DNA of 64,000 bases from Escherichia phage JP4, in sequence record PQ330092; one strand, written 5' to 3'. The notes beneath the pieces are model-generated. The model was not told the origin of the DNA and made no database searches. It saw nothing but the letters and a program-made list of their open reading frames with translations. The position numbers and the translations under genes are program-made. Below are positions 262-2,187 of this stretch, one piece after another. Position 1 is the stretch's first letter, and every line of letters begins with the position of its first letter.

Positions 262-289
262 TTGCATTGTAGTTAGATTAACGTATAAT
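262..289 (+). promoter_or_regulatory. sigma70-like promoter TTGCAT-16-TATAAT
   Basis: -35 at 262-267, -10 at 284-289; same cassette recurs at 597, 1237, 2106. Confidence 0.6.
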
Positions 290-302
290 GTTTTACATAG
301 AG

Positions 303-321
303 CGGGGGAATAGTTCTCCCG
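303..321 (+). promoter_or_regulatory. 5-prime-UTR hairpin CGGGGGAA-TAG-TTCTCCCG
   Basis: 8-bp stem (one G-U pair), 3-nt loop, between -10 and SD. Confidence 0.5.
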
Positions 322-340
322 CCAGTCCAGGAGATACACC

Positions 341-604
341 ATGAACACTATCGAAATCACTATCAATGCACACGTATACGACAACGTAGTACTGCAAACT
401 ACTATGACCGCTAATGATACCAGTACTTTGCGGAATACTGTTATTAGTGCCGTATGTGCTGCAATCGGTGATGTCGCCCTGGAAAATGCAAAACACGTAA
501 ACGATGGTTTCACTATGTGCAAACGTGATAACGCAAAACATATCATCGTAGAAGGTTACGGCGGTGTAGAATATAATGTTTATATGAAAAAAGTACTTGC
601 ATAA
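341..604 (+). CDS. hypothetical protein (87 aa)
   Basis: AGGAG SD 328-332; ATG 341. Confidence 0.7.
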   Translation: MNTIEITINAHVYDNVVLQTTMTANDTSTLRNTVISAVCAAIGDVALENAKHVNDGFTMCKRDNAKHIIVEGYGGVEYNVYMKKVLA

Positions 605-624
605 TAACTAAAACAAAGTATAAT
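597..624 (+). promoter_or_regulatory. sigma70-like promoter TTGCAT-16-TATAAT
   Basis: -35 597-602, -10 619-624. Confidence 0.6.
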
Positions 625-634
625 GTTTTGCATA

Positions 635-653
635 GGGGGAGATATCCTCCCCC
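635..653 (+). promoter_or_regulatory. 5-prime-UTR hairpin GGGGGAG-ATATC-CTCCCCC
   Basis: perfect 7-bp stem directly after -10. Confidence 0.5.
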
Positions 654-671
654 ACTAAAAGGAGTAATAAA

Positions 672-896
672 ATGGCTAACTTTGATGAACTGATGCGGGA
701 AGTAGCTAACCTGGCAGAAGAGAAGAAATCATTCGATTCTATCTATAACACCGCTCACCGTGATTCAGTACTGGCATGTAACCAGGATCAAAAAGATGAA
801 CTAATCGCCACCTATCATGAAGCATGGAAGTACTACCGACAATGGGAGAAAGAAGAAAGAGAGTCTACCATTGACGGCCTCAATAATCTAATCTAA
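672..896 (+). CDS. hypothetical protein (74 aa)
   Basis: AAAGGAG SD; ATG 672. Confidence 0.7.
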   Translation: MANFDELMREVANLAEEKKSFDSIYNTAHRDSVLACNQDQKDELIATYHEAWKYYRQWEKEERESTIDGLNNLI

Positions 897-915
897 AAGT
901 TTTATTTCAGTACTA

Positions 916-944
916 TTGACATAGCTTGATAGTACTGATGTAAT
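916..944 (+). promoter_or_regulatory. promoter TTGACA-17-TGTAAT
   Basis: -35 916-921, -10 939-944. Confidence 0.5.
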
Positions 945-972
945 AACTTTACTAACTACAAGGGGAAACATA

Positions 973-1230
973 ATGGAACAGTTCACACAATATCGGGTAA
1001 ATCCTCAAGCGATGGCCTACGTAGAAGACCATAAAACGTTACCAGTACTAACACCAATTAAAGGCCATATCTATCGTGCAATGTCGTGGTGTACGGCCCA
1101 GGATGGCTATAAAACCGTAGCCGTTGGTATGTATTGCGGTAATGGTGAATGGTTTGATCCAAATAATCCGGTAGCCATTGACAGTACTGAAAAAATGAAA
1201 TGGGCCGACTACATCGAAGATATTTCATAA
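973..1230 (+). CDS. hypothetical protein (85 aa)
   Basis: ATG ORF after promoter; GGGGAAA SD-like. Confidence 0.65.
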   Translation: MEQFTQYRVNPQAMAYVEDHKTLPVLTPIKGHIYRAMSWCTAQDGYKTVAVGMYCGNGEWFDPNNPVAIDSTEKMKWADYIEDIS

Positions 1231-1236
1231 AACTAT

Positions 1237-1264
1237 TTGACAGTACTAACCAGTAATGTATAAT
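1237..1264 (+). promoter_or_regulatory. sigma70-like promoter TTGACA-16-TATAAT
   Basis: -35 1237-1242, -10 1259-1264. Confidence 0.6.
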
Positions 1265-1277
1265 GTTTTACATAGAG

Positions 1278-1296
1278 CGGGGGAATAGTTCTCCCG
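1278..1296 (+). promoter_or_regulatory. 5-prime-UTR hairpin (same sequence as 303-321)
   Basis: CGGGGGAA-TAG-TTCTCCCG. Confidence 0.5.
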
Positions 1297-1319
1297 CCAA
1301 TAGTTTGGAGTAAAATATT

Positions 1320-1520
1320 ATGTCTATCGCTCTCGCCCTGGTTGAAGTACTGAAAGAAGCTAAAGCCAACCTTATCGATGTACAGATTAAGGAATTGCAA
1401 AACGGCTTAATCGGCTGTACTTGTACCGCTGGCGGTGCGGCAGACTATCGAGAACACGAATCACTCGAATCACTGGTTCGGTATCTTACCATGATCGTTG
1501 ATGATTGGAGAATCATCTAA
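1320..1520 (+). CDS. hypothetical protein (66 aa)
   Basis: TTTGGAG SD; ATG 1320. Confidence 0.65.
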   Translation: MSIALALVEVLKEAKANLIDVQIKELQNGLIGCTCTAGGAADYREHESLESLVRYLTMIVDDWRII

Positions 1521-1538
1521 CAAAAAAGAATAAAAAAA

Positions 1539-1563
1539 GGGATTGACTCCGGTCAGTCCCTTT
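1539..1563 (+). terminator. rho-independent terminator candidate
   Basis: GGGATTGAC-TCCG-GTCAGTCCC hairpin then TTT. Confidence 0.5.
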
Positions 1564-1683
1564 GCTATTATATACGCATAGACAAAAACTAGCCCACAGG
1601 GTGCATAGGTGTATCTAAAATATATAGTTAATAACGGTGAGTAACTATCTGCTGGTGGAACTAAAACTATTAATAAAAAAGTA

Positions 1684-1712
1684 TTGACAAAGTATATCAG
1701 TACTGCGATAAT
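1684..1712 (+). promoter_or_regulatory. promoter TTGACA-17-GATAAT
   Basis: -35 1684-1689, -10 1707-1712. Confidence 0.5.
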
Positions 1713-1765
1713 GTATCTCGTAGGGCGGCAATGGTGCGACGGCCCACAAAGTTAGGAGCTTCAAA

Positions 1766-2098
1766 ATGACTACTTCAATCGCTATCGTTAAAGCTTTCAT
1801 CCGTACCAATGTTTCTTCTGTATTCATCGACGGTATGGATCGGGAAGTAGAATACTCAATCATTATCGCACAGACTGCAAACGGTGCTCGGTATATCCTT
1901 AATGATAGTGAAGCAAATCACTACTACTTCACTAAAGCCACTGGCTTTAAACGCATCGATGCTGATGTAGTATACGCTAAGATGAATAAGCTGGTAGACA
2001 AGATTAACGCTAAAGGCACTATTGATTTACAGTACTGGACCGAAACCGATCCAGAATATGGATCTCACCGCTACCTGAATCCAGGAATTAAAATGTAA
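1766..2098 (+). CDS. hypothetical protein (110 aa)
   Basis: AGGAG SD 1755-1759; ATG 1766. Confidence 0.7.
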   Translation: MTTSIAIVKAFIRTNVSSVFIDGMDREVEYSIIIAQTANGARYILNDSEANHYYFTKATGFKRIDADVVYAKMNKLVDKINAKGTIDLQYWTETDPEYGSHRYLNPGIKM

Positions 2099-2105
2099 AA
2101 AGTAC

Positions 2106-2133
2106 TTGCATAGTACTTAGATTCATGTATAAT
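2106..2133 (+). promoter_or_regulatory. sigma70-like promoter TTGCAT-16-TATAAT
   Basis: -35 2106-2111, -10 2128-2133. Confidence 0.6.
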
Positions 2134-2146
2134 GTTTTACATAGAG

Positions 2147-2166
2147 AGGGGGAAATGGTTCTCCCT
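2147..2166 (+). promoter_or_regulatory. 5-prime-UTR hairpin variant
   Basis: AGGGGGAA / TTCTCCCT imperfect stem after -10. Confidence 0.4.
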
Positions 2167-2187
2167 CCTAAATTAAGGAGTTTTATC

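What the first reader, a model, noticed from the sequence alone, without database searches (positions are those of the whole stretch)
262..2170. Reiterated promoter plus 5-prime-UTR hairpin cassette on successive early genes
Four genes are each preceded by the same ~60-bp unit: -35 (TTGCAT or TTGACA), 16-nt spacer, GTATAATGTTTTACATAGAG, then a GC-rich hairpin (CGGGGGAA-TAG-TTCTCCCG or GGGGGAG-ATATC-CTCCCCC), then the SD. A conserved hairpin in the transcribed leader of several independent promoters implies shared post-initiation control, such as an RNase processing site, a translational operator or an antitermination element.
Basis: partly seen in the sequence, partly recalled or inferred. Interest (0 to 1): 0.6.

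Follow-up and report, generated by a model that had tools for sequence, protein, structure and literature searches.

The report
Repeated early promoter–hairpin gene cassettes
Four small early genes of a giant E. coli phage each carry the same portable unit (strong host-type promoter, short RNA hairpin, ribosome site); it closely resembles the known shuffling cassettes of T4-like phages, so it is a new variant, not a new control system.

Summary
Four + strand cassettes (genes starting at 341, 672, 1320 and 2188) share an A-tract, a -35 box (TTGCAT or TTGACA), a 16-nt spacer, GTATAATGTTTT(A/G)CATAG, a 7-9 bp G-rich/C-rich hairpin, an SD and an ATG.

The window is an Asteriusvirus jumbo coliphage, 98% identical to PBECO4. 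Bases 1 to about 3020 are the end of its ~21-kb direct terminal repeat. That repeat holds about 25 such cassettes in front of small genes of unknown function. None occurs in the other 61 kb of the window.

The hairpin always starts 8-14 nt after the -10 box, so about +2 to +7 of the predicted transcript. Its sequence and loop vary, but pairing is kept: 8 of 8 pairs show compensatory changes, and G·U pairs occur only in the sense strand. It lacks a T-run.

The same layout occurs in Munch, RaK2, Serratia BF and rV5-like phages.

Between close relatives, single genes come and go by recombination inside the cassettes. Phage 121Q lacks gene 341-604 and has one chimeric cassette in its place.

Best reading: these are PeSL-like mobile early-expression cassettes. 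The leader hairpin is probably a generic 5'-end protector or insulator, but this is inferred, not shown. A sequence-specific operator, a nut site, an RNase III site and an intrinsic terminator all fail their tests.

The parts
253..343 (+). Cassette c1. A-tract 253-257 (overlaps the stop codon of gene 63-254), -35 TTGCAT 262-267, -10 TATAAT 284-289, predicted start near A295/A297, leader hairpin 302-322, SD AGGAG 329-333, ATG 341.
   Evidence: In EcMJ and ELP-22 the hairpin patch is replaced while the flanks stay identical. In 121Q, c1 is fused with c2.
586..674 (+). Cassette c2. A-tract 586-592, -35 TTGCAT 597-602 (overlaps stop codon 602-604), -10 619-624, hairpin 635-653 (7 bp, 5-nt loop, linker 10 nt), SD 660-664, ATG 672.
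   Evidence: A c2-type cassette with a compensated stem (GGGAGAGA/TCTCTCCC) precedes an unrelated gene in RaK2.
1231..1322 (+). Cassette c3. -35 TTGACA 1237-1242, -10 1259-1264, hairpin 1277-1297 (identical to c1), SD GGAG 1307-1310, ATG 1320.
   Evidence: (12 of 12 promoter match).
2097..2190 (+). Cassette c4. A-tract 2097-2101, -35 TTGCAT 2106-2111, -10 2128-2133, hairpin 2146-2167, SD AGGAG 2176-2180, ATG 2188.
   Evidence: A near-identical cassette precedes the 43%-identical homologue in Salmonella phage Munch.
916..975 (+). Promoter of the same class without a hairpin. TTGACA 916-921, 17-nt spacer, TGTAAT 939-944, short leader, ATG 973.
   Evidence: (leader dG 0).
1684..1768 (+). Promoter with a degenerate leader hairpin of the rV5 type. 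TTGACA 1684-1689, GATAAT 1707-1712, GGGCGGCAATGGTGCGACGGCCC 1723-1745, ATG 1766.
   Evidence: Weak CM hit at 1717-1750. Compare A73 GGGCGGCA-atag-TGCCGCTC. This cassette is the junction repeat of a one-gene insertion in 121Q.
341..604 (+). Gene driven by c1 (87 aa, no family match). It is a presence/absence unit: 121Q lacks it.
672..896 (+). Gene driven by c2 (74 aa, phrog_24380, unknown function).
1320..1520 (+). Gene driven by c3 (66 aa, phrog_14244, unknown function).
2188..2589 (+). Gene driven by c4 (133 aa, phrog_10173, unknown function). Homologues occur in rV5-like phages, Eneladusvirus, Munch, RaK2 and RB49/phi1.
1536..1563 (+). A true terminator-like hairpin, separate from the cassette hairpins. 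12-bp stem AAAGGGATTGAC-tccg-GTCAGTCCCTTT, repeated about 4 times per terminal repeat.
   Evidence: Annotated as a terminator in G17.

Best explanation
The four units are copies of a portable early-gene expression cassette of an Asteriusvirus jumbo phage. Each has an A-tract (UP-like), a sigma-70 promoter, a short leader that opens with a G-rich/C-rich stem-loop, an SD and a start codon.

About 25 copies sit in front of small ORFan genes in the ~21-kb direct terminal repeat. The window's first ~3 kb is the right end of that repeat.

Two levels of function are proposed.

(1) DNA level (shown by comparison). The dispersed 45-100-bp cassette repeats are substrates for homologous recombination and short-patch gene conversion. 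These events delete, insert or swap single 'cassette + gene' units and homogenise the cassettes. This is the behaviour described for PeSL cassettes of T4-like phages.

(2) RNA level (inferred). Host RNA polymerase starts about 7-8 nt after TATAAT, at the A of the conserved CAT. The hairpin then occupies about +4 to +27 of every transcript. The selection is on pairing, not on sequence.

The hairpin most likely acts as a generic 5'-proximal element. It would shield the short leader from 5'-end-dependent decay (RppH/RNase E). It would also insulate the ribosome site from variable upstream and coding sequence, so that any gene dropped behind the cassette is expressed early and strongly. The 5' hairpins of ompA and papA and the T7 phi10 leader hairpin work this way.
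For: Identity and context:
- The window is 98% identical to PBECO4.
- The terminal repeat is annotated as 1-21525 in vB_Ec-M-J. Window position 1 corresponds to 18506, so the repeat ends near window 3020. The G17 record starts at the same point.
- Cassette counts are 10-15 per genome and 24-28 in most records of 366 kb or more, which carry both repeats.
- The related jumbo phage PA5oct transcribes its terminal-repeat genes early, with host RNA polymerase (PMC7318152).

Promoter:
- Near-consensus -10 box, TTG at -35, 16-nt spacer and an A-tract.

Hairpin as an RNA structure:
- 53 cassettes were collected from 6 loci, with 30 distinct stems, all paired. The linker from the -10 box to the stem is 8-14 nt, with modes at 10 and 12.
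- There are 13 G·U and 0 U·G pairs.
- With the covariance model, 98.1% of cells are paired, 8 of 8 pairs have compensatory changes, and 0 of 500 shuffles reach this.
- In the promoter-first test, 26 of 51 and 5 of 7 leaders are structured in the repeat, against 0 of 58 outside it.
- The same layout occurs in Munch, RaK2, Serratia BF and the rV5-like phage A73, with different stem sequences.

Recombination:
- 121Q has one chimeric cassette in place of c1-gene(341-604)-c2, with a 67-nt junction repeat. It also has an extra gene at the 1684-1768 cassette, with a 68-nt repeat.
- Junctions are chimeric, with different crossover points in ELP-22 than in PBECO4 and phAPEC6.
- 6-7 of 13 indels between vB_Ec-M-J and 121Q have junction repeats of 43-103 nt that are promoter cassettes.
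- The c1 hairpin patch is swapped while the flanks stay identical.
- The c4 cassette is 75% identical to Munch's (core about 87%), while the CDS is 57% identical in nucleotides and 43% in amino acids. The upstream genes are unrelated.
- A c2-type cassette precedes an unrelated gene in RaK2.

Analogue:
- The T7 phi10 transcript begins with an 8-bp purine-first hairpin of similar stability.
Against: - No transcription start site is mapped.
- With the predicted start, 1-7 nt stay unpaired before the stem, and 3 or 5 nt in most copies. From my own recollection of the ompA work, protection needs no more than about 2-4 unpaired nt, and RppH needs 2-3 or more. The geometry is therefore only borderline for a classical 5' stabiliser.
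- About a third to a half of the promoters in the repeat have no hairpin, so the hairpin is not obligatory.
- For c4, the thermodynamic optimum of the longer RNA is a different fold that pairs the SD.
- The purine-first asymmetry of the stems is not explained by a purely structural role. It could be inherited from a single ancestral hairpin.
- About half of the indels between terminal repeats show no cassette repeat at the junction in my simple chaining.
- The covariation counts use related copies and an alignment fitted to the model.
Confidence: 0.65

Rival explanations
1. The hairpin is a terminator or attenuator for transcripts reading through from the upstream cassette. This is the role the PeSL authors gave to their stem-loops. 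It may also serve as a 3' protective hairpin once upstream transcripts are trimmed.
For: - In a lacZ assay, a G/C PeSL stem-loop reduced downstream expression as much as a strong terminator (PMC2839356).
- About 25 same-direction promoters lie in the repeat with only about 4 canonical terminators, so some damping would be useful.
- Two hairpins of the same type that lack a promoter but have a T-run exist in the repeat, at L006 4895 and 15793.
Against: - Only 1 of 53 cassette hairpins is followed by a T-run. The terminator scan calls none of the four window hairpins.
- A terminator placed after the next promoter would not protect that promoter from occlusion.
- This role does not explain the tight 8-14-nt spacing to the -10 box, kept across genera.
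Confidence: 0.18
2. The hairpin is a shared, specific post-initiation control site. It would be an operator for a phage RNA-binding protein, a nut/put-like antitermination signal, or a nuclease processing site that switches the whole early gene set on or off.
For: - The position and general form (G-run at the base, A·U pairs at the top, often ACUA after the stem) are shared by dozens of leaders in several phage genera.
- 13 of 30 distinct 5' arms contain an SD-like GGAG, GAGG or AGGA, and the 3' arms look like the anti-SD. One RaK2 copy is AGGAGGU/ACCUCCU.
- The 3' arm of c4 can pair with its own SD.
Against: - Loop sequence and length (3-6 nt) and the stem sequence vary freely with compensation.
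- I saw no boxA-like partner in the leader sequences I read.
- Stems of 6-10 bp are too short for RNase III.
- There is no Rfam family match.
- Each gene has its own promoter, and canonical terminators are few, so antitermination is not needed.
Confidence: 0.1
3. The inverted repeat works as DNA. It would be a palindromic operator at about +5 to +25 for a repressor that shuts off early promoters, or a cruciform recognised by a recombination enzyme.
For: - It overlaps the start-site-proximal region, where repressors often bind.
- Crossovers do fall in and around it. PeSL crossovers were mapped in the loop (PMC2839356).
Against: - The arms co-vary instead of keeping a half-site sequence, and the spacing between arms varies from 3 to 6 nt.
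- Internal G·T pairs occur only on the sense strand. On the other strand they are A·C mismatches, and those hairpins are not found there.
Confidence: 0.04
4. The hairpin has no function of its own. The similarity of the four units is only recent duplication and gene conversion.
For: - c1 and c3 share an identical 42-nt stretch running from the -10 box through the hairpin.
- Conversion between copies is evident.
Against: - Thirty different stem sequences in five phage groups all keep pairing and position.
- Structured leaders are absent outside the repeat.
Confidence: 0.03

Closest known systems
PeSL (promoter-early stem-loop) cassettes of T4-like phages RB49/phi1, PST/T4 and nt-1/KVP40 (Arbiol et al. 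2010, PMC2839356; Comeau et al. 2014, PMC4122927)
   Same: - The parts match: an AT-rich upstream region, a sigma-70 early promoter, a G-run/C-run stem-loop (with G·T pairs), an SD and an ATG.
- They are repeated many times in front of small ORFans in a plastic region.
- Indels between close relatives sit at the cassettes and leave chimeric cassettes behind.
- The gene behind c4 is homologous to phi1 ORF225, which itself sits behind a PeSL.
   Different: - The host lineage differs: Asteriusvirus and other Rak2-like jumbo phages, plus rV5-like phages.
- Here the stem-loop lies 8-14 nt after the -10 box, inside the predicted transcript. In PeSLs it lies between or over the promoter boxes, upstream of them, or just before the start site. 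In phi1 ORF225 it overlaps the -10 box.
- The cassettes are concentrated in the direct terminal repeat.
- There is no T-run, and no evidence here for termination or mini-circles.
- The covariance model built from these hairpins finds nothing in the phi1 locus.
5'-terminal stabilising stem-loops of E. coli mRNAs (ompA, papA; Emory, Bouvet and Belasco 1992; cited in PMC3997798) and the T7 phi10 leader hairpin
   Same: - A stable hairpin lies near the 5' end of a short leader, is defined by structure rather than sequence, and is followed by an SD.
- T7 phi10 RNA starts with the 8-bp hairpin GGGAGACC-ACAAC-GGUUUCCC. This phi10 leader, +1 through the AUG, folds at -16.1 kcal/mol.
   Different: - In those cases the hairpin is at, or within a few nucleotides of, a mapped 5' end, and its effect on half-life has been measured.
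- Here the start is only predicted, the unpaired tail would be 1-7 nt, and no stability data exist.
Morons of lambdoid phages (Hendrix et al. 2000; discussed in PMC2839356)
   Same: Single accessory genes that bring their own promoter.
   Different: Morons have no conserved flanking repeat that mediates their movement, and they usually carry a terminator. Here a repeated cassette is itself the recombination site.
Lambda nut (boxA/boxB) and HK022 put leader RNA elements
   Same: RNA hairpins just downstream of early promoters.
   Different: Those have conserved loop or sequence features and act on downstream terminators. Here the loops are not conserved, I noted no boxA-like motif in the leaders (not formally searched), and there are few terminators to override.

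Membership tests
PeSL cassette | Sigma-70-like early promoter with an AT-rich upstream region | tested here: met
   TATAAT, TTGCAT or TTGACA, a 16-nt spacer and an A-tract in all four. Promoter activity itself was not measured.
PeSL cassette | Adjacent stable stem-loop, typically a G-run followed by a C-run | tested here: met
   7-9 bp G/C-rich stems at -14.4 to -15.9 kcal/mol.
PeSL cassette | Stem-loop placed in one of the five described positions (upstream of the -35 box, over the -35 box, between the boxes, over the -10 box, or after the -10 box just before the start site) | tested here: not met
   The stem starts 10-12 nt after the -10 box in the window and 8-14 nt in 53 copies. This is beyond the predicted start site. 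The description is in PMC2839356.
PeSL cassette | Many copies in a plastic region, each ending in an SD and start codon of a small ORFan | tested here: met
   About 25 per terminal repeat. The genes have no known function.
PeSL cassette | Indels and replacements between close relatives lie at the cassettes, with chimeric cassettes at empty sites | tested here: met
PeSL cassette | Formation of excised mini-circles during infection | not testable with these tools
   Needs inverse PCR on infected cells.
PeSL cassette | Stem-loop terminates or attenuates upstream transcription | tested here: inconclusive
   There is no T-run in 52 of 53 copies and no terminator call. A functional assay is needed.
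5'-terminal stabilising stem-loop | Hairpin within a few nucleotides of the mapped 5' end | tested here: inconclusive
   The start is only predicted. The unpaired tail would be 3-5 nt in the window if the start is at A8, and 5-7 nt if at position 6.
5'-terminal stabilising stem-loop | The structure matters, not the sequence | tested here: met
   Compensatory changes at all 8 pairs, and non-conserved loops.
5'-terminal stabilising stem-loop | Lengthens mRNA half-life | not testable with these tools
   Needs rifampicin-chase experiments.
Intrinsic terminator | G/C hairpin followed directly by a U-tract | tested here: not met
nut/boxB-type antitermination site | Conserved loop and an accompanying boxA-like motif | tested here: not met
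   Loops vary in sequence and in length, 3-6 nt. There is no Rfam hit. The boxA half rests only on my reading of the leader sequences; no boxA motif search was run.
RNase III processing site | About two helical turns of double-stranded RNA | tested here: not met
   Stems are 6-10 bp.
Palindromic DNA operator | Conserved half-site sequence at fixed spacing | tested here: not met
   The arms co-vary, the spacing between them is 3-6 nt, and G·T pairs occur on the sense strand only.

The most novel reading that the evidence does not exclude
The leader hairpin is a regulon-wide tag on early mRNAs from the terminal repeat of Rak2-like jumbo phages and rV5-like phages.

It would be a purine-first duplex resembling an SD paired with an anti-SD. 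A phage or host factor that recognises shape would read it (a binding protein, a nuclease or the ribosome itself). That factor would protect these messages during host shut-off or silence them together at the early-to-middle switch, for instance by freeing the anti-SD-like 3' arm to pair with the gene's own SD.
Probability: 0.1. Interest if true: 0.7.

Novelty: new variant of a known kind. Interest (0 to 1): 0.4.

Why it matters
**Gene turnover.** If this reading is right, the one-gene-at-a-time turnover of the early, host-takeover gene set of giant coliphages has a simple mechanical basis. Standard plug-in cassettes both express whatever lies behind them and recombine with one another. That extends the PeSL idea from T4-like phages to Rak2-like jumbo phages and rV5-like phages.

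**Possible second constraint.** Here the hairpin has a fixed place in the transcript, which hints at an RNA-level requirement beyond recombination.

**Practical uses.**
- The cassettes mark early genes in these poorly annotated genomes.
- They help correct start codons.
- They are compact strong-expression parts.
- They predict where engineered or therapeutic jumbo phages will rearrange.

Tried and rejected
- **Rfam.** A scan of 1-3200 at E <= 1 gave nothing.
- **MAFFT plus RNAalifold.** On 49 leaders this gave no consensus pairs, because the alignment ignores structure. I replaced it with a covariance model from 10 same-geometry seeds. The first seed set put two hairpins with 3-nt loops out of register, so I rebuilt it.
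- **Built-in promoter scan.** It misses c1, c2 and c4, because TTGCAT matches only 3 of 6 positions of TTGACA. I used my own scans instead.
- **Weak 17-mer matches.** Those at 17952, 18724 and 28035 (3 mismatches each) have no hairpin and no cassette context, so I took them as chance.
- **Literature.**
  - No description of these cassettes turned up for Asteriusvirus, RaK2, CBB or rV5. The CBB and rV5 papers report only sigma-70-like promoters with UP-like elements and separate terminators.
  - No start-site data were found for this phage group.
  - Bricker and Belasco 1999 is not held, so the distance rule for 5' hairpins rests on my memory.
- **Rejected readings.**
  - Intrinsic terminator.
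  - RNase III site.
  - nut site.
  - DNA operator.
  - CsrA site: I saw no GGA in the loop sequences I read, which was an eyeball check, not a separate scan.
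Full report
**What is in the sequence.**
- Reading 1-3600 confirms four + strand units, in front of the ATGs at 341, 672, 1320 and 2188.
- Each unit has an A-tract, a -35 box (TTGCAT in c1, c2 and c4; TTGACA in c3), a 16-nt spacer and GTATAATGTTTT(A/G)CATAG. A G-rich/C-rich inverted repeat, an SD and the start codon follow.
- The 17-mer around the -10 box occurs three times exactly and once with one mismatch. No shuffle reaches the observed count.
- The hairpins are GCGGGGGAA-tag-TTCTCCCGC (302-322 and 1277-1297), GGGGGAG-atatc-CTCCCCC (635-653) and GAGGGGGAA-atgg-TTCTCCCTC (2146-2167). 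They fold at -14.4 to -15.9 kcal/mol.
- Two further promoters of the same class lie in the stretch. One has no hairpin (ATG 973). The other has a decayed hairpin (ATG 1766).

**Where the window comes from.**
- The first 3 kb are 98% identical to Escherichia phage PBECO4 and 96-98% identical to about 30 other Asteriusvirus jumbo phages.
- In vB_Ec-M-J a direct terminal repeat (DTR) is annotated at 1-21525. Window position 1 aligns to 18506, so the repeat ends near window 3020. The G17 record starts at the same point.
- Inside the repeat, about 53 small genes are each separated by 60-100-bp spacers. After it, the genes overlap in operon fashion.
- An 85-nt cassette query finds 10-15 places per genome. 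It finds 24-28 in most records of 366 kb or more, which include both repeats, so essentially all copies lie in the repeat.
- In the related jumbo phage PA5oct, the genes of the terminal repeat are the highly transcribed early genes, and host RNA polymerase is required (PMC7318152). By analogy these are early promoters. This step is inferred.
- The eight proteins encoded in 1-3000 have no known function.

**The family is large and the hairpin is positioned.**
- In the vB_Ec-M-J repeat, about half of the promoter-like sites are followed by a stable leader. That is 26 of 51, against 4% of control windows.
- In the window the figures are 5 of 7 inside the repeat and 0 of 58 outside it.
- A hairpin-first scan of six loci collected 53 cassettes. 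The loci were the window, vB_Ec-M-J, Salmonella phage Munch, Klebsiella phage RaK2, the rV5-like phage A73 and Serratia phage BF.
- The stem starts 8-14 nt after the -10 box, with modes at 10 and 12.
- Loops are 3-6 nt and unrelated in sequence.
- Only 1 of 53 hairpins is followed by a T-run.
- There are 30 distinct stems, for example GGGGAGAA/TTCTCCCC, GAGGGGAA/TTCCCCTC, GGTGGGGAA/TTCCCCACT, GGGGATACA/TGTATCCCT, GGGAATGAA/TTCATTCCC and GGGCGGCA/TGCCGCTC.
- The 5' arms are 91% purine.
- All 13 wobble pairs have G in the 5' arm. These stems are therefore intact only in the sense RNA, and they are not found on the minus strand.
- I built a covariance model from ten seeds. In the window it hits only 297-326, 1272-1301 and 2141-2171, plus a weak hit at 1717-1750. 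It misses c2 at E <= 1.
- On its 52 distinct matches, 98.1% of cells pair and all 8 pairs show changes on both sides (83 cells). No shuffle out of 500 and no slid register comes close.
- Two caveats apply. The copies are related, and the alignment is fitted to the model.
- The promoter-first test and the presence of the same layout in five phage groups with different stems do not share these caveats.

**What the hairpin is not.**
- It is not an intrinsic terminator. There is no T-run, and the scan calls none of the four. A distinct 12-bp-stem hairpin at 1536-1563 fills that role.
- It is not an RNase III site, because the stems are only 6-10 bp.
- It is not a nut-like site or a sequence-specific operator. 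Loops and stems are free to vary, and there is no Rfam match.
- It is not a DNA operator. The arms co-vary, their spacing varies, and the wobble pairs are specific to one strand.

**What it most likely does as RNA (inferred).**
- The conserved TTT(A/G)CAT after the -10 box puts the likely start at the A 8 nt (or the purine 6 nt) downstream. This leaves 3-5 (or 5-7) unpaired nucleotides in the window's cassettes, then the hairpin, then 6-9 nt, then the SD.
- A bound ribosome and the hairpin would together cover almost the whole leader of about 45 nt.
- This is the design of known 5' protective hairpins (ompA and papA; references in PMC3997798). It is also the design of the T7 phi10 leader, whose RNA begins with an 8-bp purine-first hairpin of the same stability.
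- The fit is imperfect. The predicted tail is at or beyond the length at which, as I recall, protection fades. Many promoters in the repeat lack the hairpin. For c4, the thermodynamic optimum of the longer RNA pairs the SD instead.
- I therefore rate the generic protector/insulator role at about 0.4 on its own.

**What the cassette does as DNA (shown by comparison).**
- Phage 121Q lacks window gene 341-604. In its place is one cassette, which aligns both to c1 and to c2 over 67 nt and is a mosaic of the two.
- 121Q also has an extra gene, flanked by a 68-nt repeat of the 1684-1768 cassette.
- phAPEC6, ELP-22 and PBECO4 lack a gene that vB_Ec-M-J, G17 and ph0011 have. The single cassette left behind is a left/right chimera, and its crossover point in ELP-22 differs from that in PBECO4 and phAPEC6.
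- Across the whole repeat, 6-7 of 13 indels of 60 nt or more between vB_Ec-M-J and 121Q have junction repeats of 43-103 nt that are promoter cassettes.
- The c1 orthologues differ between two groups of genomes by a patch of about 32 nt covering the linker and hairpin. The flanks are identical on both sides, and both versions pair fully. In the window lineage the c1 patch is identical to c3.
- The c4 cassette is much better conserved with Munch than the gene behind it (75% overall and about 87% in the core, against 57% nt and 43% aa). The upstream genes are unrelated.
- A c2-type cassette with a compensated stem drives an unrelated gene in RaK2.

**Comparison with what is known.**
- All of this matches the PeSL cassettes of T4-like phages. 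Those are strong sigma-70 promoters plus G/C stem-loops in front of ORFans in plastic regions. They mediate modular shuffling and leave chimeric cassettes (PMC2839356, PMC4122927).
- The homologue of the c4 gene in phi1 (ORF225) sits behind a classic PeSL whose stem-loop overlaps the -10 box.
- The differences are the phage lineage, the concentration in the terminal repeat, and the fixed position of the stem-loop inside the transcript. That position is not one of the five described PeSL positions.
- My literature searches found no description of these cassettes in Asteriusvirus, RaK2-like or rV5-like phages.

**Verdict.**
- This is a new variant of a known kind, of moderate interest.

Noticed in passing
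window ~3019-3020: This is the right boundary of the phage's ~21-kb direct terminal repeat. It corresponds to vB_Ec-M-J position 21525 and to the start of the G17 record. Gene organisation switches here from one promoter per gene to overlapping genes.
   Followed up: partly
window 3117-9012: Directly after the repeat lies a tandem array of about 19 overlapping paralogous ORFs of roughly 65-90 aa. They share a G[TS]N[YF]Q motif. One more copy lies at 24017-24208.
   Followed up: partly
whole window: The palindrome AGTACT is strongly over-represented. It occurs 22 times against 0.9 expected in 1-3020, and 172 times against 20 expected in the rest. It sits just upstream of -35 boxes (AAAAAGTACTTGCA), at the end of promoter spacers (cAGTACTgTATAAT) and inside coding regions. 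I have no explanation for this.
   Followed up: partly
window 1536-1765: A 12-bp-stem hairpin, AAAGGGATTGAC-tccg-GTCAGTCCCTTT, is annotated as a terminator in G17. Together with the ~200-bp non-coding stretch after it, it forms a repeat present about 4 times per terminal repeat (L006 14011, 17286, 20042).
   Followed up: partly
window 2614-2633: A perfect 8-bp hairpin, AGGCCGCT-ctct-AGCGGCCT, lies between genes 2188-2589 and 2658-2867. It has no promoter and no T-run on the + strand, so it is a different kind of intergenic hairpin.
   Followed up: no
window 2125-2190: Several public records (PBECO4, G17, ph0011, 121Q) annotate this gene from the ATG at 2125, which lies in the promoter spacer and overlaps the first base of the -10 box. 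That places the promoter and hairpin inside the CDS. The SD-supported start is 2188, as in phAPEC6, ELP-22 and vB_Ec-M-J.
   Followed up: partly
window 1723-1745: The leader hairpin of the promoter at 1684-1712 (GGGCGGCAATGGTGCGACGGCCC) looks like a decayed copy of the type found in rV5-like phages (A73: GGGCGGCA-atag-TGCCGCTC). It no longer folds well.
   Followed up: partly
window 2141-2202: For c4, the minimum-energy fold of the leader plus the first codons is not the 5' hairpin. It is an alternative (-20.5 kcal/mol) in which CUCCU pairs with the SD AGGAG. This may be incidental.
   Followed up: no
L006 10524-10547 compared with T7 22904-22926 (L014): One Asteriusvirus leader hairpin (GGGGGAAACGGTTTCCCCT) shares the 11-mer AACGGTTTCCC with the T7 phi10 leader hairpin. 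This is probably chance.
   Followed up: no
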